This document shows, piece after piece, positions 6,170 through 17,937 of a stretch of DNA of 64,000 nucleotides. Made by a program: the position numbers and the translations under genes. Under the pieces are notes generated by a model that saw only the letters and a list, made by a program, of their open reading frames with translations, was not told where the DNA came from and ran no database searches. Numbering within the stretch: position 1 is the first letter of the stretch; each line of letters begins with the position of its first letter. The stretch comes from Gemmatimonadaceae bacterium (lineage in GTDB: Bacteria; Gemmatimonadota; Gemmatimonadetes; Gemmatimonadales; Gemmatimonadaceae): assembly GCA_050998915.1 (NCBI GenBank), contig JBPCPS010000141.1, forward strand, positions 5,878-69,877, written 5' to 3'.

Positions 6170-6940
6170 ATGCCGCAACATGTGCTCCGGTCGTTAAGGC
6201 ACGAATACCAGGTCTTCGTCGAGTCCGAGATCGAGCGCTACAAGGACTCGGTGTCGCGGCATTCGCTGCTCGGCATCGCCGACGAAGCGGTCACCGCGCT
6301 CCGCTCGCAGGCGCAATACGAGCCGGAAGAGCTATCGCTGTGCGCTGAAGTCGACCGGCTGATCGCGCGCCGCATCAAGCTTCCGAAGTACACCACCTGG
6401 CAGCGCAAGCGGCTCAAGCGGCTGGCGGAGTATCGCAAGCCGGAGACGTGGGGCATTGCGCCGGACGGCCCGCTGGTTCGCGAGATCAAGCCGGGCTCCG
6501 ACACTCACGTGCTCGTCACCGGCGCGGAGTGCGAGCGCGCCGCGATCTATCTCGCCGCGCATGGTTGCGCGGTAACCGCGATCAACGAGGAAGAAGACTG
6601 CGTCGATCGCGTCGTGGCAGCGGCCGCCGCCGCAGGCCTCAACTCCCGCATCCACGCGTGTGTCGCGGACCTTGGCACCTGGTCGCCCAAGCCCCTGACC
6701 GCCGTGGTGTGTCCCAGCGACAGCCTCGCGTCATTGACGCCCCACGACCGGACGCGCGTCATCGAGCTGTTGCAGCACGCAACGAAAGCCGGCGGCGTTC
6801 ACCTGTTCGAGACCATTCTCAACGGCAGCGGCTCTCTCACCGTGGACGAGCTTCGGGCGCGCTATTCGGGGTGGACAGTAGCGGTCGAGCGGGAGAGCGG
6901 GACGGCCCGAAGCTTCCTCGCTCGGAAAGCCGCCGCGTAA
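6170..6940 (+). CDS. Hypothetical protein; C-terminal Rossmann/methyltransferase-like half with degenerate motif I
   Basis: High GC3 ORF. VLVTGAECERAAIYLAAHGCAVTAINEEE resembles MTase motif I-II but lacks the Gly-rich loop. ATG 6170 preferred over TTG 6122. Confidence 0.5.
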   Translation: MPQHVLRSLRHEYQVFVESEIERYKDSVSRHSLLGIADEAVTALRSQAQYEPEELSLCAEVDRLIARRIKLPKYTTWQRKRLKRLAEYRKPETWGIAPDGPLVREIKPGSDTHVLVTGAECERAAIYLAAHGCAVTAINEEEDCVDRVVAAAAAAGLNSRIHACVADLGTWSPKPLTAVVCPSDSLASLTPHDRTRVIELLQHATKAGGVHLFETILNGSGSLTVDELRARYSGWTVAVERESGTARSFLARKAAA

Positions 6941-6946
6941 CGTATC

Positions 6947-6985
6947 GACACAGGTGGAAGCCGAAAACGTGTCAGTATGCGACAC
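6947..6985. promoter_or_regulatory. Alternating GACAC/GTGTC/GACAC pentamers (candidate enhancer-binding-protein site)
   Basis: GACAC at 6947-6951, GTGTC at 6969-6973 and GACAC at 6981-6985, about 75-110 nt upstream of the sigma54-type promoter. Confidence 0.3.
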
Positions 6986-7057
6986 TTTCAGTTGGTCGCA
7001 GCTCCTATGTATCAGGCTAACTCTTTGTTAATTAACGACTTAGGTTAACCGAGGCAC

Positions 7058-7074
7058 TTGGCACCGGCCGTGCC
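7058..7074 (+). promoter_or_regulatory. Sigma54-type (-24/-12) promoter candidate
   Basis: TTGGCACCGGCCGTGCC: TGGCAC at 7059-7064 and GTGC at 7070-7073, with the canonical GG-N10-GC spacing. It sits about 37 nt upstream of ATG 7110. The AT-rich AATTAACGACTTA (7030-7042) resembles an IHF site. Confidence 0.5.
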
Positions 7075-7109
7075 TTTGTGGGGGCGTACACAGCACCCTA
7101 CGAGGCCAC

Positions 7110-7262
7110 ATGAAGAAATCGAGTGTCAAGTCTGAAGCGTTCGAGCCGATCGGCATCGTCATCTCGCGTGGCGAGCGATCCGAGCCCGTCCCCGTGGTCC
7201 TCGAGTACGTCTGGGGACCCGCCCCCGTGGAAACGGCGCCCGCCAAAGTCCGGGCTGCCTGA
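7110..7262 (+). CDS. Small ORF (50 aa), unknown function; below the ORF-track cutoff
   Basis: MKKSSVKSEAFEPIGIVISRGERSEPVPVVLEYVWGPAPVETAPAKVRAA. GAGG lies 6 nt upstream of the ATG and third positions are GC-rich like neighbouring genes. It is bracketed by the sigma54-type promoter and a hairpin-plus-U terminator. Confidence 0.45.
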   Translation: MKKSSVKSEAFEPIGIVISRGERSEPVPVVLEYVWGPAPVETAPAKVRAA

Positions 7263-7335
7263 CGCCACTACTATAGGAAAGAACCGGCAGCAGGAATAGA
7301 ACCGGCAGCCGGTCCTCTTTGGGACACCACAGACT

Positions 7336-7363
7336 CCGTCGCGCGCAGCGGCGGGGTTTTCTG
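7336..7363 (+). terminator. Rho-independent terminator-like hairpin after the small ORF
   Basis: CCGTCGC (7336-42), loop GCGCA, GCGGCGG (7348-54; one G-U pair), then GGTTTTCTG. Confidence 0.45.
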
Positions 7364-7384
7364 CATCCTTGGGCGGTATGACCA

Positions 7385-8425
7385 TTGCCCATAGGCGCCA
7401 ACGTGACCTCTGACGGCGACTGGGAAGTCGAGCGCGAGCGGCTCCTCTCGCAGCGTATCTCGGACATCGGCCTTTCCCTGGAAGGGACGGTCCTCGAGAA
7501 GCTCGTCACCCAGCTGTACGTGGAGCTCGATCAGCGCGGCCTCGCGTTCCGTCCGCCCGTGTACCTCAGCGACCAGTGGGGGTGCCCCGACGGCACGCCG
7601 CTCATCGGCGTTCCCTTTTATCTCGCGGATCCGCGGCTTGCGCGCATCGAGGAAGACTTCGCGCTCGAGATCGAGAACGAGAACGATGTGATGCGGTTTC
7701 TTCGCCACGAAGCCGGGCACGCTTTCAACTACGCCTACCGCCTGCACGACCGCGCCGACTGGCACGAGGTGTTCGGGCCGTACTCCCGGCCCTACCGGGA
7801 CCGGTACCGGTCCGATCCGTTCACGCACCAATACGTCCGCCACATTCTCGGCTGGTACGCGCAGAAACACCCCGACGAGGATTTCGCGGAGACGTTCGCC
7901 GTGTGGCTGACGCCCGACATCGACTGGCGCGCCGATTACGAGGGCTGGGGAGCGCTTCGAAAGCTCGAGTACATCGACTCGGTGATGCGTGAGGTCGGCA
8001 AAACGCAGCCGGAGACTCCCGAGCTCACCGACGACGACCTTCCTGTCGCAGCGATGCGTTACACGGTGGCCGAGCATTACCGCGACATGGACGACCCCCT
8101 TCCGGTCAGCGATCCGCGTATCTTCGATGGCGACCTGCGCACGCTTTTCGGGAAGGCGTCGGACATGCCTGACAAGGACCGCGCCGGCGAGTTCATCCGC
8201 CTGCACCGGCGCGAGATCGCGGGACGGATCGCGTATTGGACGGGGGAGCCTGCCACGGTCGTGCGCAAGTTCGTGGATTTGATCGCCGATCGCGCGGAAA
8301 CGCTCGGCCTCGCGGTCCGGGGCCGCGAGGCGTCCACGCTCATCGAGCTTACGGCGTTCGGCACCGCCGTCGTGATGAACTACCGTTACACCGACGACTT
8401 TACTGGAGAACGGCCGGCCGAATGA
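7385..8425 (+). CDS. Putative zinc metallopeptidase (HExxH; Peptidase_Mx-like)
   Basis: RHEAGHAFNY HExxH motif, plus a later DEDFAETFA acidic motif. 4-nt ATGA overlap with the downstream ATP-grasp gene. The true start may be GTG 7403. Confidence 0.7.
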   Translation: MPIGANVTSDGDWEVERERLLSQRISDIGLSLEGTVLEKLVTQLYVELDQRGLAFRPPVYLSDQWGCPDGTPLIGVPFYLADPRLARIEEDFALEIENENDVMRFLRHEAGHAFNYAYRLHDRADWHEVFGPYSRPYRDRYRSDPFTHQYVRHILGWYAQKHPDEDFAETFAVWLTPDIDWRADYEGWGALRKLEYIDSVMREVGKTQPETPELTDDDLPVAAMRYTVAEHYRDMDDPLPVSDPRIFDGDLRTLFGKASDMPDKDRAGEFIRLHRREIAGRIAYWTGEPATVVRKFVDLIADRAETLGLAVRGREASTLIELTAFGTAVVMNYRYTDDFTGERPAE

Positions 8426-9405
8426 AGATCACTCTGCTGCACACGCAGGACGCGCTGGAGGATCCGCTCGATCCGGTGCTTGCCCAGATCGACGACGCGC
8501 TCGTGCGTCTCGGGCACGAGCCGTCGCGGATCGTGGTAGACGACAAGGTTCAGCCGGTCGTCACGGCGCTGGCGCAGTCGCCACCGGATCTGCTATTCAA
8601 CTTGTGCGAGTCGTTCGGCGGGCGAAGCGCGCTCGAATCCAACGTCGCCGCGCTGCTCAACCTGCTCGACCTGCGGTACACCGGTTCGAGTCCGGCCGGG
8701 CTCATCGTCGCCGGCGACAAGACGCTCACGAAGAAGGTGCTTTCCTTCCACGGTATCACCACGCCGAAGTTTGCCACGGTCTTTCGCGGCACCGTGGACT
8801 GGGCCGGCGACGTCGAGTTCCCGCTCATCGTGAAGCCGCCGCAGGAAGACGCGTCGCTCGGCATCACCGGCAAGTCGGTAGTGCGCGACGTGAAGGAGCT
8901 ACTGGAAACCATGAGCTCGCTGCAGACGGAGTACAAGTCCGCGGTGCTCGCCGAGCAGTTCATTGAGGGGCGCGAGTTCTACGTGGGAGTGCTCGGCAAT
9001 TCCAGTCCGGAAGCTCTTCCCGTGATCGAGCTGGACTTCACGGGATTCCCTCCGGACAAGCCGCGGATCGCGAGCTGGGCGGCCAAGTGGGGCGATGAAG
9101 GGGATGAATCCGGCGCCGAGTTCGCGGGCACGAAATCGGTATTCCCGACGGACGTGAGCGAGGATTTGATCGTTGCCATGCAGCAGGTCGCGGTGGATTC
9201 CTTCAATGCGCTGCGCCTGCGCGACTACGCGCGCATCGACCTGCGCGTCACCGACGCGGGCGAAATCTACGTGATAGAAGCGAACCCCAACTGCTACCTC
9301 GAGGCCGGGAGCGAGTTCGCGCGTGCGGCGGCTGAAGCCGGGATGCAATACGATCAGCTGATCGAGAAGATCATGGAGTTGGCCACTGCGAGATACTCGC
9401 GCTAA
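8422..9405 (+). CDS. ATP-grasp ligase, D-alanine--D-alanine ligase-like
   Basis: MKITLLHTQ..., FPLIVKPPQEDASLGI, AEQFIEGREFYVGVLGN, DYARIDLRV...IYVIEANPN (ATP-grasp Mg/ATP motifs). ATG 8422 overlaps the peptidase stop. Confidence 0.8.
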   Translation: MKITLLHTQDALEDPLDPVLAQIDDALVRLGHEPSRIVVDDKVQPVVTALAQSPPDLLFNLCESFGGRSALESNVAALLNLLDLRYTGSSPAGLIVAGDKTLTKKVLSFHGITTPKFATVFRGTVDWAGDVEFPLIVKPPQEDASLGITGKSVVRDVKELLETMSSLQTEYKSAVLAEQFIEGREFYVGVLGNSSPEALPVIELDFTGFPPDKPRIASWAAKWGDEGDESGAEFAGTKSVFPTDVSEDLIVAMQQVAVDSFNALRLRDYARIDLRVTDAGEIYVIEANPNCYLEAGSEFARAAAEAGMQYDQLIEKIMELATARYSR

Positions 9406-9472: not shown

Positions 9473-9616
9473 CTAGCGCTTGCGCTTCTTGGCCGAGCTC
9501 TTCCGCGCGCTCTTGCGGGCGGTCTTGCGGCCCGTGCTCTTGCGGGCGCTCTTGCGGGCCGTCTTGCGGCCGGCGGTCTTTTTCCGACCCGAGCTCTTCT
9601 TCTTTCTGGCTGCCAT
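9473..9616 (-). CDS. Small highly basic Lys/Arg-rich protein (47 aa; histone H1-like or nucleoid-associated)
   Basis: MAARKKKSSGRKKTAGRKTARKSARKSTGRKTARKSARKSSAKKRKR with an internal GRKTARKSARKS repeat. GGAG lies 8 nt upstream of ATG 9616. The longer 77-aa ORF start is unlikely. Confidence 0.6.
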   Translation of the reverse strand: MAARKKKSSGRKKTAGRKTARKSARKSTGRKTARKSARKSSAKKRKR

Positions 9617-9680
9617 CGTCTCGCTCCATTCAGGAGTGAATTTCTCACCTGTCCACCGGTGGACCGGCGAGCATAGCGAA

Positions 9681-9742
9681 TGCAACTTCGAACGTTGCAC
9701 GATCACGGTGCTTGCACGAACAACATGTTTGCAACCGTGATC
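9681..9742. promoter_or_regulatory. Two adjacent palindromes (operator-like) upstream of the basic-protein gene
   Basis: TGCAAC-N7-GTTGCA at 9681-9699. GATCACGGT...ACCGTGATC at 9701-9742 (9-bp perfect arms). TTGCA recurs four times. Confidence 0.35.
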
Positions 9743-16569: not shown

Positions 16570-17937
16570 GTGGCGAGCGTCCTCATAGTCGACGACGAGC
16601 CGAATATCCGGCGAATGGTCGGCGCGCTGCTGAGCGCCGAAGGTTACGACGTGCGCGAAGCGGAAGACGGCACGGCAGGACTGGCCGCAGCCGAGCAGCA
16701 GGAGCCGGACGTCGTACTGCTGGATCTGCTCATGCCGGGCGCGCTCGACGGAATGGCGACGCTCACCAGGCTTCGCGAAGCACACCCCGACATTCCCGTG
16801 GTCATGATGAGCGGGCGCGCCGGACTCGGCGACGCGGTACGAGCCACCAGACTCGGCGCGTTCAACTTCCTCGAGAAGCCGCTCACGCCCGAGAGCGTAT
16901 TGCTGACCGCATCCGCGGCGGCGGAGCTGCGCCGGACGAAGCTCGCCGCGCGCGCCCTGCGCGAAGAGCTCGGGCTCGGCGGACGGATGGTCGGGAGCAG
17001 CCCACAGATGCGGGCGGTGCGCTCGCTGATCGAGCGCGTGGCGCCGTCCGATTCGCGGGTGCTCATAACGGGCGAATCCGGCACGGGGAAGGAGCTGGTA
17101 GCCGCCGCCATCCACGATGCGAGCAGGCGACGGGACCGCGCGTTCGTCCGCGTCAATTGCGCGGCGATCCCGCGCGATCTCGTGGAGAGCGAGATGGTCG
17201 GCCACGAGCGGGGCGCGTTCACCGGCGCGACTCAAACGAGGATCGGGCGGTTCGAGCTGGCACATGGCGGGACGCTCTTCCTGGACGAGATCGGCGATCT
17301 GGGCGCCGAGGCGCAGGCCAAGCTGCTGCGCGCGATCGAAGCCAAGGAGATCCAGCGCGTCGGCGGGAGCAAGCCCGTTAACGTCGACGTCAGGATCATC
17401 TCCGCCACCAACCACGATCTCGCGCGCGGCGTCGCGGAGGGCGTCTTTCGCGAGGACCTGTACTTCCGGCTCAACGTCATTCCGCTCACGCTCCCGGCCC
17501 TGCGCGAGCGGGACGGCGACGTTGTGGAGCTGGCCAGGTATTTCACGGAGCTGCACCACTCCAAGACCGGTCGTCCGCGGGTGATCTGGAGCGCCGACGC
17601 GCTCGCCGCCGTCGAGGAATACGCTTGGCCGGGGAACGTGCGCGAGCTGGCGAACATCGTCGAGCGGATGGCAATTCTTCATCCCGGCGAAGAGCTGACG
17701 CGCGCGCACATGGCCGCCGTCCTGCCAACTGGCGGCGATGGCGGTCCGGTAGGCGCACTCCCGTCCGGGGATGTTCCGCTCACGGACGCTTTGGACGATT
17801 ACGAGCGGCGCCTGATCCTGCGCGCGCTCGACGAGGCCAGGTGGAACGTGGCCGATGCCGCGAGGCGACTTCGGACCGACCGCCCCAACCTGTATCGGCG
17901 CATGAAGCGGCTCGGAATCGACGACCCGCGTGTATAA
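16570..17937 (+). CDS. Sigma54-dependent response regulator (NtrC/NtrX family)
   Basis: Receiver domain (VLIVDDE...DLLMPG), AAA+ Walker A GESGTGKE, GAFTGA loop, C-terminal HTH. Confidence 0.92.
   Translation: MASVLIVDDEPNIRRMVGALLSAEGYDVREAEDGTAGLAAAEQQEPDVVLLDLLMPGALDGMATLTRLREAHPDIPVVMMSGRAGLGDAVRATRLGAFNFLEKPLTPESVLLTASAAAELRRTKLAARALREELGLGGRMVGSSPQMRAVRSLIERVAPSDSRVLITGESGTGKELVAAAIHDASRRRDRAFVRVNCAAIPRDLVESEMVGHERGAFTGATQTRIGRFELAHGGTLFLDEIGDLGAEAQAKLLRAIEAKEIQRVGGSKPVNVDVRIISATNHDLARGVAEGVFREDLYFRLNVIPLTLPALRERDGDVVELARYFTELHHSKTGRPRVIWSADALAAVEEYAWPGNVRELANIVERMAILHPGEELTRAHMAAVLPTGGDGGPVGALPSGDVPLTDALDDYERRLILRALDEARWNVADAARRLRTDRPNLYRRMKRLGIDDPRV

What the first reader, a model, noticed from the sequence alone, without database searches (positions are those of the whole stretch)
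6947..7363. Self-contained sigma54-type transcription unit encoding an unannotated 50-aa protein
The 440-bp gap before the metallopeptidase gene contains these elements in order:
- Alternating GACAC/GTGTC/GACAC pentamers at 6947-6985.
- An AT-rich stretch with the perfect palindromes GTTAATTAAC and GGTTAACC, and AATTAACGACTTA (one mismatch to the IHF consensus WATCAANNNNTTR).
- TTGGCACCGGCCGTGCC at 7058-7074, with the exact GG-N10-GC spacing of -24/-12 promoters.
- A GAGG Shine-Dalgarno sequence.
- A 50-codon ORF at 7110-7262 with GC3 bias like real genes.
- A 7-bp GC hairpin followed by GGTTTTCTG at 7336-7363.

This is the textbook geometry of an enhancer-dependent promoter. A sigma54-dependent activator is encoded in the same window (16570-17937). 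The ORF is below the 60-aa track threshold, so it would be missed by default. It is the only -24/-12 match with correct spacing that I found by eye in the window.
Basis: partly seen in the sequence, partly recalled or inferred. Interest (0 to 1): 0.62.

Follow-up and report, generated by a model that had tools for sequence, protein, structure and literature searches.

The report
Sigma-54-driven gene for a small protein
The gap holds a real 50-codon gene with its own enhancer, sigma-54 promoter and terminator; the unit is conserved across Gemmatimonadales soil bacteria, its layout is textbook, and the protein belongs to an undescribed family of unknown function.

Summary
Comparative data support the sigma-54 reading.

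- **ORF 7110-7262:** it is under purifying selection (dN/dS 0.12). Its product occurs in 68 of 70 sampled genomes of the same family, and more weakly in two sister families.
- **Promoter:** across 77 named Gemmatimonadota loci, TGGCA[CT]-N5-[GCT]TGC lies upstream in 35 (0 on the reverse strand, 0.09 expected).
- **Enhancer:** TGTC-N5-7-GACA palindromes lie further upstream in 59 of the 77 (1.0 expected).
- **Genome and terminator:** rpoN and six activator genes are present. The terminator hairpin is conserved.

- The promoter's matrix score alone is unremarkable.
- The AT-rich palindromes are not conserved.
- The IHF-like site holds only within the genus.
- The cognate activator is unidentified.

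New points:
- The protein has no known family or fold. It ends in Ala-Ala in 79 of 112 relatives, like the host's SsrA tag.
- A second GG-N10-GC element (GGTAT-N5-TTGCC, 7375-7389) precedes the peptidase gene, with a GTG 12-14 nt downstream in all 21 inspected loci. This suggests a near-leaderless sigma-54 transcript.

No RNA data could be consulted.

The parts
6170..6940 (+). Upstream methyltransferase-like gene, the invariable left neighbour of the unit. Its stop codon lies 6 nt before the first GACAC.
   Evidence: Weak Methyltransf_25/TehB hits. It lies upstream on the same strand in 12/12 20-kb contexts and in 63/63 named loci with full flanks.
6947..6985 (.). Putative enhancer (UAS): GACAC-N17-GTGTC-N7-GACAC. 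The 17-bp palindrome GTGTC-N7-GACAC is centred about 108 bp upstream of the predicted start.
   Evidence: Conserved in the genus. TGTC-N5/7-GACA repeats occupy the same place across genera and in two sister families. Present in 59/77 named loci against 1.0 expected. The exact palindrome occurs only twice in the genome.
7030..7042 (+). IHF-like site AATTAACGACTTA in an AT-enriched spacer; a possible DNA bend.
   Evidence: Exact WATCAANNNNTTR in two genus members. Family-wide, 6/30 loci match with at most 1 mismatch against 2.4 expected. Only one HU/IHF-family gene was found. Inconclusive.
7058..7074 (+). P1, sigma-54 -24/-12 promoter TTGGCAC-cggcc-GTGCC (GG 7060-61, GC 7072-73). Predicted start about 7085.
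   Evidence: GG and GC are invariant, and spacer substitutions break the palindrome in relatives. Strict pattern in 17/30 loci forward, 0 reverse, 0.02 expected, and in 35/77 against 0.09 expected.
7102..7105 (+). Shine-Dalgarno GAGG, 4 nt before the ATG.
   Evidence: CGAGGCC-ACATG is conserved in all ten genus sequences.
7110..7262 (+). Gene for the 50-aa protein MKKSSVKSEAFEPIGIVISRGERSEPVPVVLEYVWGPAPVETAPAKVRAA.
   Evidence: dN/dS 0.12; 45/50 third positions vary against 12/50 second positions. The antisense shadow frame lacks a conserved start and carries stops in about 40% of loci. Present in 68/70 genomes of the family. 220 clusters at 50% identity.
7334..7363 (+). Intrinsic terminator: 9-bp GC-rich stem, GCGCA loop, TTTTCTG tail.
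   Evidence: RNAalifold consensus of 13 pairs, nearly all kept in 10 sequences. Region identity 0.90.
7375..7389 (+). P2, candidate second sigma-54 promoter GGTAT-gacca-TTGCC (GG 7375-76, GC 7387-88). Predicted start about 7400, 3 nt before the peptidase GTG.
   Evidence: The most conserved block of the gap (identity 0.97). GGTAy-N5-TTGC with a GTG 12-14 nt downstream in 21/21 inspected loci. Motif plus GTG in 51/55 peptidase-linked named loci and 0/8 unlinked.
7403..8425 (+). Peptidase_Mx (HExxH) gene. GTG 7403 is the likely start.
   Evidence: Pfam PF15887. GTG lies at a fixed distance from P2, whereas the TTG at 7385 is not consistently in frame in relatives.
8422..9405 (+). Ddl-like ATP-grasp ligase gene, overlapping the peptidase stop.
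   Evidence: Pfam Dala_Dala_lig_C, 2e-27. Syntenic with the peptidase where present.

Best explanation
Bases 6947-7363 are an autonomous, enhancer-dependent sigma-54 transcription unit.

**Proposed mechanism.**
1. An unidentified bacterial enhancer-binding protein binds the TGTC/GACA inverted repeats at 6947-6985.
2. The AT-enriched spacer bends the DNA, perhaps helped by the single HU/IHF-type protein.
3. This brings the activator to sigma-54 RNA polymerase held at TGGCAC-N5-GTGC (7059-7073).
4. Transcription starts near 7085.
5. The roughly 280-nt mRNA has a 25-nt leader with a GAGG ribosome-binding site and is translated into a 50-aa protein.
6. It ends at the hairpin/U-run at 7334-7363.

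**Shown here by comparison:**
- the ORF is a real protein-coding gene;
- the repeats, the -24/-12 element and the terminator are under selection;
- the genome has rpoN and activator genes.

**Inferred, not shown:** the start site, dependence on sigma-54, and the identity of the activator.

**Function of the protein (inference, about 0.3).** I read it as a short-lived, signal-induced small regulator or adaptor.
- It has a conserved 28-residue core, EPxGIVISRGxRxEPxPxxxxYVWGPAP.
- A variable acidic linker follows.
- Its Ala-Ala C-terminus resembles the host's SsrA tag (ANDNLALAA), so ClpXP-type turnover would make the response transient.

**Second promoter.** GGTAT-N5-TTGCC at 7375-7389 probably co-regulates the downstream Peptidase_Mx/ATP-grasp operon. 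It would start 1-3 nt before that operon's invariant GTG.
For: **Coding.**
- dN/dS is 0.12 in the ORF frame, against 1.7 and 5.2 in the other sense frames.
- ATG, SD and stop are conserved.
- The antisense shadow frame is interrupted in about 40% of loci.

**Distribution.**
- 68/70 sampled genomes of the family, with weaker hits in two sister families.
- 256 loci in named Gemmatimonadota MAGs.

**Promoter.**
- GG/GC is invariant while spacer changes break the palindrome.
- Mean best matrix hit is 9.8 bits forward, 4.0 reverse and 3.3 shuffled.
- The strict pattern occurs in 35/77 loci forward and 0 reverse, with 0.09 expected.

**Enhancer.** TGTC-N5-7-GACA is present in 59/77 loci against 1.0 expected, always just after the stop codon of the upstream gene.

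**Machinery.** rpoN, six activators and an HU/IHF-type gene are present.

**Terminator.** Conserved.

**Degron idea.**
- The C-terminus is AA in 79/112 relatives and [AV]A in 92/112.
- AA is also kept in genomes that lack the ligase.
- The host tmRNA tag is ANDNLALAA.
- clpX is present.

**P2.**

**Published analogue.** The glmY promoter has three TGTC-N10-GACA GlrR sites, IHF sites and a sigma-54 promoter (PMC3045617).
Against:
- The window's own matrix score (10.2 bits) is ordinary for this GC-rich genome.
- The -12 element is GTGC, not the canonical TTGC.
- The matrix was written from my recollection of the published consensus, not taken from a curated file.
- The loci compared are related, so the counts are not independent events.
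- No activator is adjacent. No second UAS-plus-promoter pair outside coding sequence was found in the genome, so the activator cannot be assigned.
- The IHF site is not conserved beyond the genus.
- The protein has no family, PDB or fold match. The AlphaFold model is only moderate (pLDDT 75, no assigned secondary structure). The functional statement is therefore inference.
- P2's -24 half (cGGTAT) is a weak match at 7.7 bits.
- No general excess of sigma-54 sites 11-15 nt before start codons was seen in this genome.
Confidence: 0.8

Rival explanations
1. The GGCAC-N5-GTGCC palindrome is not a promoter. It is a small hairpin or terminator of the upstream gene, or an operator for a dimeric repressor. 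The small gene would then be transcribed by the housekeeping sigma factor or by read-through.
For: In the window the element is a perfect 5-bp inverted repeat followed by TTTGTG. A similar GGCAC/GTGCC hairpin was noted elsewhere in the window by another first-stage note. The matrix score alone is not distinctive.
Against: In relatives the arms are often not complementary while GG-N10-GC is kept, for example TGGCCCCGCCCGTGCT, TGGCACATACGGTGCT and TGGCATTCTCCCTGCA. The strict pattern is strand-specific, 35 forward against 0 reverse. No sigma-70-like promoter was found in 6600-7700, although that scan may not fit this phylum.
Confidence: 0.07
2. The transcript acts mainly as a regulatory RNA, and the ORF is incidental or untranslated, as with the sigma-54-dependent sRNAs GlmY/GlmZ.
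For: It is a short (about 280 nt), terminator-bounded transcript from a sigma-54 promoter with GlrR-like TGTC/GACA repeats, as at glmY. The 3' UTR holds a second hairpin and a genus-conserved CCACTACTATAGGATAGG block.
Against: The codon-position pattern and dN/dS of 0.12. The amino-acid core is conserved at only 44-58% identity across 112 clusters while the DNA diverges. SD and ATG are conserved. No Rfam match was found. A dual-function RNA is not excluded.
Confidence: 0.04
3. The small protein is the ribosomally made substrate, or a tag, of the adjacent ATP-grasp ligase and Mx peptidase. This would be a RimK/Pup-like C-terminal tailing system or a graspetide-type RiPP, with the C-terminal Ala-Ala as the acceptor.
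For: The peptidase-ligase operon directly follows the small gene in 55/63 close loci and in 11 of 28 evenly sampled genomes. It carries its own sigma-54-like promoter. The ligase is Ddl-like and the peptide ends in Ala-Ala. The same idea appears in an unchecked first-stage note (e1-4101175).
Against: The small protein and its Ala-Ala end persist in 17 sampled genomes where the orthologous peptidase is not adjacent. Nine of these have no Peptidase_Mx at all, and the other eight have only a divergent paralogue elsewhere. A terminator separates the genes. The core lacks the Thr/Ser-Asp/Glu-Lys pattern typical of graspetides (from memory, not tested).
Confidence: 0.1
4. The real gene is the antisense ORF 7246-7040, which shares wobble positions with the sense ORF.
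For: The antisense shadow frame shows dN/dS of 0.17 and is open in 9 of 10 genus sequences.
Against: Its TTG start is TTC in three genus members, and one member has an internal stop. About 40% of named loci have stops in that frame. The promoter, SD and terminator all face the plus strand. Shadow ORFs of this frame are a known by-product of high GC3.
Confidence: 0.01

Closest known systems
glmY/glmZ sigma-54 promoters of Enterobacteriaceae (GlrK/GlrR, IHF)
   Same: Several TGTC...GACA inverted repeats lie more than 100 bp upstream, IHF-type sites sit in between, a -24/-12 promoter follows, and the short transcript ends at a terminator (PMC3045617).
   Different: The repeat spacing is N5/N7 here, not N10. 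The product is a translated 50-aa protein, not an sRNA. The phylum differs (Gemmatimonadota). No GlrR orthologue has been assigned.
Canonical NtrC/NifA-type enhancer-dependent promoters (glnAp2; nifH with TGT-N10-ACA and -24 TGGTAT)
   Same: The UAS is a 17-bp palindrome about 100 bp upstream. GG-N10-GC is present. P2's GGTAT resembles the Klebsiella nifH -24 element (from memory).
   Different: The -12 is GTGC at P1. The repeats are TGT-N9-ACA and TGT-N7-ACA. The target is a stand-alone small ORF, not a metabolic operon.
SsrA-like C-terminal Ala-Ala degrons (the ClpX C-motif 1 class; CtrA of Caulobacter)
   Same: A conserved terminal -AA follows a variable linker. The host's own tmRNA tag ends in LAA and clpX is present.
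   Different: The residue before AA is Lys or Arg, not Leu. Degradation has not been tested.
RimK/S6 and Pup/PafA/Dop-type amidoligase-peptidase systems acting on small proteins (Iyer et al. 2009, Mol Biosyst; from memory, paper not held)
   Same: A small protein is encoded next to an ATP-grasp ligase and a metallopeptidase of the Peptidase_Mx family.
   Different: Co-occurrence is not obligatory, the genes are separate transcription units, and there is no biochemical evidence.

Membership tests
Sigma-54 (RpoN) dependent promoter | -24 GG and -12 GC separated by exactly 10 nt, conserved in orthologous positions | tested here: met
   GG 7060-61 and GC 7072-73. Invariant in the genus. The strict TGGCA[CT]-N5-[GCT]TGC occurs in 35/77 loci forward, 0 reverse, 0.09 expected.
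Sigma-54 (RpoN) dependent promoter | Score against the extended consensus stands out from the genome background | tested here: not met
   10.2 bits, about rank 250 of 275 hits of at least 10 bits. Other window hits score as high or higher. The matrix is approximate and written from memory.
Sigma-54 (RpoN) dependent promoter | rpoN encoded in the genome | tested here: met
   Sigma54_DBD at 218.7 bits in a 524-aa open frame on C218.
Sigma-54 (RpoN) dependent promoter | Transcription start 11-13 nt downstream of -12 that depends on rpoN | not testable with these tools
Enhancer-dependent (bEBP-activated) promoter | AAA+ activator with a sigma-54 interaction domain present | tested here: met
   Six genes at 113 bits or more. 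The one in the window is REC-AAA+-HTH_8. The cognate one is not identified.
Enhancer-dependent (bEBP-activated) promoter | Conserved inverted-repeat UAS about 80-150 bp upstream | tested here: met
   GTGTC-N7-GACAC is centred about 108 bp upstream of the predicted start. It is conserved in the family and the order, in 59/77 loci against 1.0 expected.
Enhancer-dependent (bEBP-activated) promoter | IHF site between UAS and promoter | tested here: inconclusive
   Supported at genus level. Family-wide, 6/30 loci match with at most 1 mismatch against 2.4 expected. One HU/IHF-family gene. The spacer is AT-enriched.
GlrR-type activator sites | TGTC-N10-GACA spacing | tested here: not met
   The spacing here is N7 and, in relatives, N5, against N10 in PMC3045617.
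Protein-coding small ORF | Purifying selection in frame, conserved start, SD and stop, and no better alternative frame | tested here: met
Intrinsic terminator | GC-rich stem followed by a U-run, kept in relatives | tested here: met
   The simple scan missed it because the T-run is TTTTCTG.
SsrA-like C-terminal degron | Conserved C-terminal Ala-Ala with ClpX present | tested here: met
   79/112 relatives end in AA. clpX scores 627 bits. The host tag is ANDNLALAA.
SsrA-like C-terminal degron | Degradation dependent on ClpXP | not testable with these tools
   Needs a stability assay.
Graspetide/RiPP precursor or ligase substrate | Obligatory co-occurrence with the ATP-grasp maturase | tested here: not met
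   Nine of 17 unlinked genomes have no Peptidase_Mx at all, and eight have only a divergent paralogue elsewhere. AA is kept in all of them.
Known protein family or fold | Match to Pfam, NCBIfam, PDB sequence or PDB fold | tested here: not met

The most novel reading that the evidence does not exclude
The locus is a two-promoter sigma-54 module.
- P2 fires 1-3 nt upstream of an invariant GTG. To my knowledge a sigma-54-dependent leaderless mRNA has not been described.
- The P1-encoded 50-aa protein, with its Ala-Ala C-terminus, is the acceptor or tag handled by the co-induced Ddl-like ATP-grasp ligase and Mx peptidase. This would be a new C-terminal protein-tailing system in Gemmatimonadota.

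The probability given is for the full reading, tailing system included. The leaderless P2 alone I would put at about 0.35.
Probability: 0.08. Interest if true: 0.8.

Novelty: new member of a known kind. Interest (0 to 1): 0.45.

Why it matters
- **An annotated promoter in a poorly studied phylum.** It gives Gemmatimonadota, which has almost no experimentally defined promoters, a well-supported sigma-54 promoter and enhancer architecture. The local consensus is TGGCAy-N5-sTGC with TGTC-N5/7-GACA repeats, which can seed regulon prediction.
- **A new small-protein family.** It defines a family of about 50-aa proteins conserved across the order, with no Pfam or NCBIfam model. Their strict sigma-54 control and Ala-Ala end suggest a transient signalling role.
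- **A possible leaderless sigma-54 transcript.** The fixed 12-14 nt spacing between a second -12 element and a GTG start codon makes this directly testable.

Tried and rejected
- **Rfam:** only sub-threshold chance hits in 6700-7600.
- **Sigma-70 scan:** nothing found.
- **First alignment:** A1 mixed strands and was discarded.
- **Regulon search in the own genome.** The pairing of GACAC-N16-GTGTC with the best-scoring sigma-54 site on C43 lies inside a coding region. The UAS-plus-promoter pair on C63 lies inside cysS, where the W-H-L-E-C motif encodes TGGCATCTCGAGTGC. Both were rejected as regulon members.
- **Autoregulatory sites near the six activator genes:** two hits, both inside coding sequence. 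Rejected.
- **uORF reading of ATGACCATTGCC at 7378:** neither frame nor start is conserved.
- **TTG 7385 as the peptidase start:** it is out of frame in other genera (and reading).
- **Genome-wide excess of sigma-54 sites 11-15 nt before long ORFs:** none seen.
- **Structure:** AlphaFold with a shallow alignment gave pLDDT 62 and with a deep one 75, with no secondary structure assigned. Foldseek against PDB found nothing, and a profile search of PDB sequences found nothing.
- **Iyer et al. 2009:** the paper could not be read because it is not held.
Full report
**1. The observation**

Direct reading confirms each element.
- GACAC 6947-6951, GTGTC 6969-6973 and GACAC 6981-6985.
- The AT-rich palindromes GTTAATTAAC (7027-7036) and GGTTAACC (7043-7050).
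- AATTAACGACTTA at 7030-7042.
- TTGGCACCGGCCGTGCC at 7058-7074, with GG at 7060-61 and GC at 7072-73.
- GAGG at 7102-7105.
- A 50-codon ORF at 7110-7262.
- A GC-rich hairpin. It is in fact a 9-bp stem at 7334-7356, followed by TTTTCTG up to 7363.

The flanking genes are:
- a weak methyltransferase-like gene at 6170-6940;
- a Peptidase_Mx gene ending at 8425;
- a Ddl-like ATP-grasp ligase at 8422-9405.

**2. Is it more than chance?**

Within the window alone, not clearly.
- An approximate sigma-54 matrix, written from my recollection of the published consensus, gives 10.2 bits.
- There are 275 sites of at least 10 bits in the 2.8-Mb, 66% GC genome.
- Several sites in the window score as high or higher. 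The claim that this is the only -24/-12 match is therefore too strong.
- The strict pattern TGGCA[CT]-N5-[GCT]TGC does occur only once in the window.

The decisive evidence is comparative. The gap aligns with nine same-genus genomes from 7056-7059 rightwards by BLAST. Once the strands were set right, it aligns throughout. Conserved blocks alternate with variable spacers (majority identity):

| Block | Identity |
|---|---|
| UAS | 0.80 |
| Spacer | 0.56 |
| IHF-like site | 0.67 |
| Spacer | 0.55 |
| -24/-12 element | 0.90 |
| Leader | 0.83 |
| ORF | 0.87 |
| 3' UTR middle | 0.46 |
| Terminator | 0.90 |
| Block before the peptidase | 0.97 |

**3. The ORF is a gene**

- Across the ten sequences, 45 of 50 third codon positions vary, against 18 first and 12 second positions.
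- Nei-Gojobori dN/dS is 0.12 in frame, against 1.7 and 5.2 in the other sense frames.
- The antisense shadow frame shares the wobble positions and so mimics this signal (0.17). It has no conserved start and carries a stop in one genus member. About 40% of named loci have stops in that frame.
- Public assemblies already call homologues as 'hypothetical protein'. One carries the label Gemmatimonadaceae.

**4. Distribution**

- A profile of the peptide finds it in 68 of 70 evenly sampled genomes of the same family. Weaker hits fall in two other families of the order.
- Inspection of six of those weak hits shows genuine homologues with the same architecture.
- 220 clusters at 50% identity exist in the 1.8-billion-protein library.
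- 256 loci, all in Gemmatimonadota MAGs, were found in the species-representative genomes.

**5. Promoter and enhancer**

The sigma-54 reading, not a hairpin, explains what is conserved.
- In orthologues GG-N10-GC is kept while the spacer and flanks change, so the palindrome seen in the window is often lost. Examples are TGGCCCCGCCCGTGCT, TGGCACATACGGTGCT and TGGCATTCTCCCTGCA.
- In 30 loci from many genera, the best matrix hit upstream averages 9.8 bits, against 4.0 on the reverse strand and 3.3 in shuffles. The strict pattern is present in 17, with 0 on the reverse strand and 0.02 expected.
- In 77 independently fetched named loci it is present in 35, with 0 on the reverse strand and 0.09 expected.
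- TGTC-N5-7-GACA palindromes lie 100-420 nt upstream of the core codons in 59 of the 77 loci, against 1.0 expected. They always sit directly after the stop codon of the methyltransferase-like gene.
- The window's geometry is textbook. The UAS is centred near -108, the AT-enriched IHF-like stretch lies near -49, the predicted start is at 7085, and the leader is 25 nt.

The genome supplies the machinery.
- It encodes rpoN.
- It encodes six proteins with a sigma-54 interaction domain. One is the REC-AAA+-HTH_8 regulator at 16570-17937.
- It encodes one HU/IHF-family protein.

The IHF consensus itself is well matched only within the genus and is weakly enriched elsewhere. The two AT-rich palindromes are not conserved.

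**6. Terminator**

RNAalifold finds a consensus 13-pair stem followed by a U-run, kept in all ten sequences.

**7. Which activator?**

This remains unresolved.
- The whole block is syntenic across the family: rlmI-like, methyltransferase-like, small gene, peptidase and ligase where present, tdh, kbl, then the histidine kinase and activator. The presence of the NtrY/X-like pair about 9.5 kb away is therefore not specific evidence.
- In two genomes no activator lies within 10 kb.
- No other intergenic UAS-plus-promoter pair exists in this genome. The two apparent ones lie inside coding sequence.
- No autoregulatory site was found.
- The closest published architecture is glmY. There GlrR binds three TGTC-N10-GACA sites and IHF is required (PMC3045617). 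The spacing here differs.

**8. The protein**

- There is no Pfam, NCBIfam or PDB match.
- AlphaFold with 112 diverse sequences reaches pLDDT 75, and 83-90 over residues 21-40, with no assigned secondary structure. Foldseek finds nothing.
- The alignment shows a conserved core EPxGIVISRGxRxEPxPxxxxYVWGPAP, a variable Ala/Glu/Thr/Pro-rich linker, and a conserved end.
- 79 of 112 sequences end in AA and 92 in [AV]A, mostly as KAA or RAA.
- The host tmRNA tag is ANDNLALAA and clpX is present.

From this I infer, without a test, a ClpXP-type degron. The protein would then be a transient, signal-induced small regulator or adaptor. The invariable adjacency of the methyltransferase-like gene (63/63 loci) suggests it as a possible partner.

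**9. Relation to the peptidase and ligase**

- The operon follows the small gene in 55 of 63 close loci.
- In the even sample, 17 of 28 inspected genomes lack it there. Nine of these have no Peptidase_Mx at all. Eight have only a divergent paralogue elsewhere.
- The peptide and its AA end persist in all of them.

The peptide therefore does not depend on the ligase. The substrate or tag idea survives only as a minority reading.

**10.

- The most conserved block of the gap is GGTATGACCATTGCC (7375-7389). It is again GG-N10-GC with a canonical TTGC.
- In all 21 inspected peptidase-linked loci from several genera, a GTG lies 12-14 nt after the -12 GC, although the N-terminal protein sequences differ.
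- The motif plus GTG is present in 51 of 55 linked named loci and in 0 of 8 unlinked ones.
- No consistent SD or -10 hexamer is present.
- The TTG at 7385, the start listed, is out of frame in other genera.

The simplest reading is a second sigma-54 promoter starting 1-3 nt before the GTG, which would give a near-leaderless mRNA. Three caveats apply.
- The -24 half is weak, at 7.7 bits.
- No genome-wide excess of such spacing was seen.
- There are no transcript data.

**11. Verdict**

The regulatory layout is a new example of a well-known kind. The small-protein family is undescribed and its function unknown. The possibly leaderless second promoter is the most unusual feature.

Noticed in passing
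window 7283-7300: Relative to all nine same-genus genomes, the window carries an extra ~18 nt in the 3' UTR. It looks like a tandem duplication (GAACCGGCAGCAGGAATA GAACCGGCAGCC) that disturbs the first, covarying hairpin (GGACCGG/CCGGTCC, or GGGTCGG/CCGATCC in relatives).
   Followed up: partly
window 7263-7280: The block CCACTACTATAGGATAGG directly after the stop codon is conserved in the genus (identity 0.87) but not in other genera. Its function is unknown; it could be a site serving P2.
   Followed up: no
window 19933 and 54529: Two near-identical sigma-54-like sites (TTGGTAGTGCGGTTGCT and TTGGTAGCGAGGTTGCT, 11.8 and 11.7 bits) score higher than the site under study. Their context was not examined.
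   Followed up: no
G000:C43:23567-23680: GACAC-N16-GTGTC lies 97 nt upstream of the best-scoring sigma-54 match in the genome (TTGGCAAGTCTGTTGCA, 17.5 bits). Both lie inside a ~120-aa ORF. They could be an internal promoter for the next gene or chance.
   Followed up: partly
G000:C183:12003: A sigma-54-like site (CAGGCGCCTGGCTTGCA) lies 14 nt before the ATG of an 866-aa ClpB-like ORF, the same spacing as P2. It is a single case and was not tested in relatives.
   Followed up: no
L046-L053 (G167, G278, G084, G116, G113, G047, G242, G299): A second, divergent Peptidase_Mx subfamily (N-terminus ...RLMQLRLRDLGV..., WFSP motif) is encoded elsewhere in genomes that lack the peptidase next to the small gene.
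   Followed up: partly
G000:C195: The single tmRNA gene encodes the tag ANDNLALAA.
   Followed up: yes
window 9473-9706 (-): In genomes without the peptidase-ligase pair, the small gene appears to be followed by a reverse-strand gene that begins MAAKKK (seen only as the reverse-complement string TTCTTGGCAGCCAT). This resembles the Lys/Arg-rich gene at 9473-9706 of the window, which would place the pair as an insertion or deletion between two fixed neighbours.
   Followed up: partly
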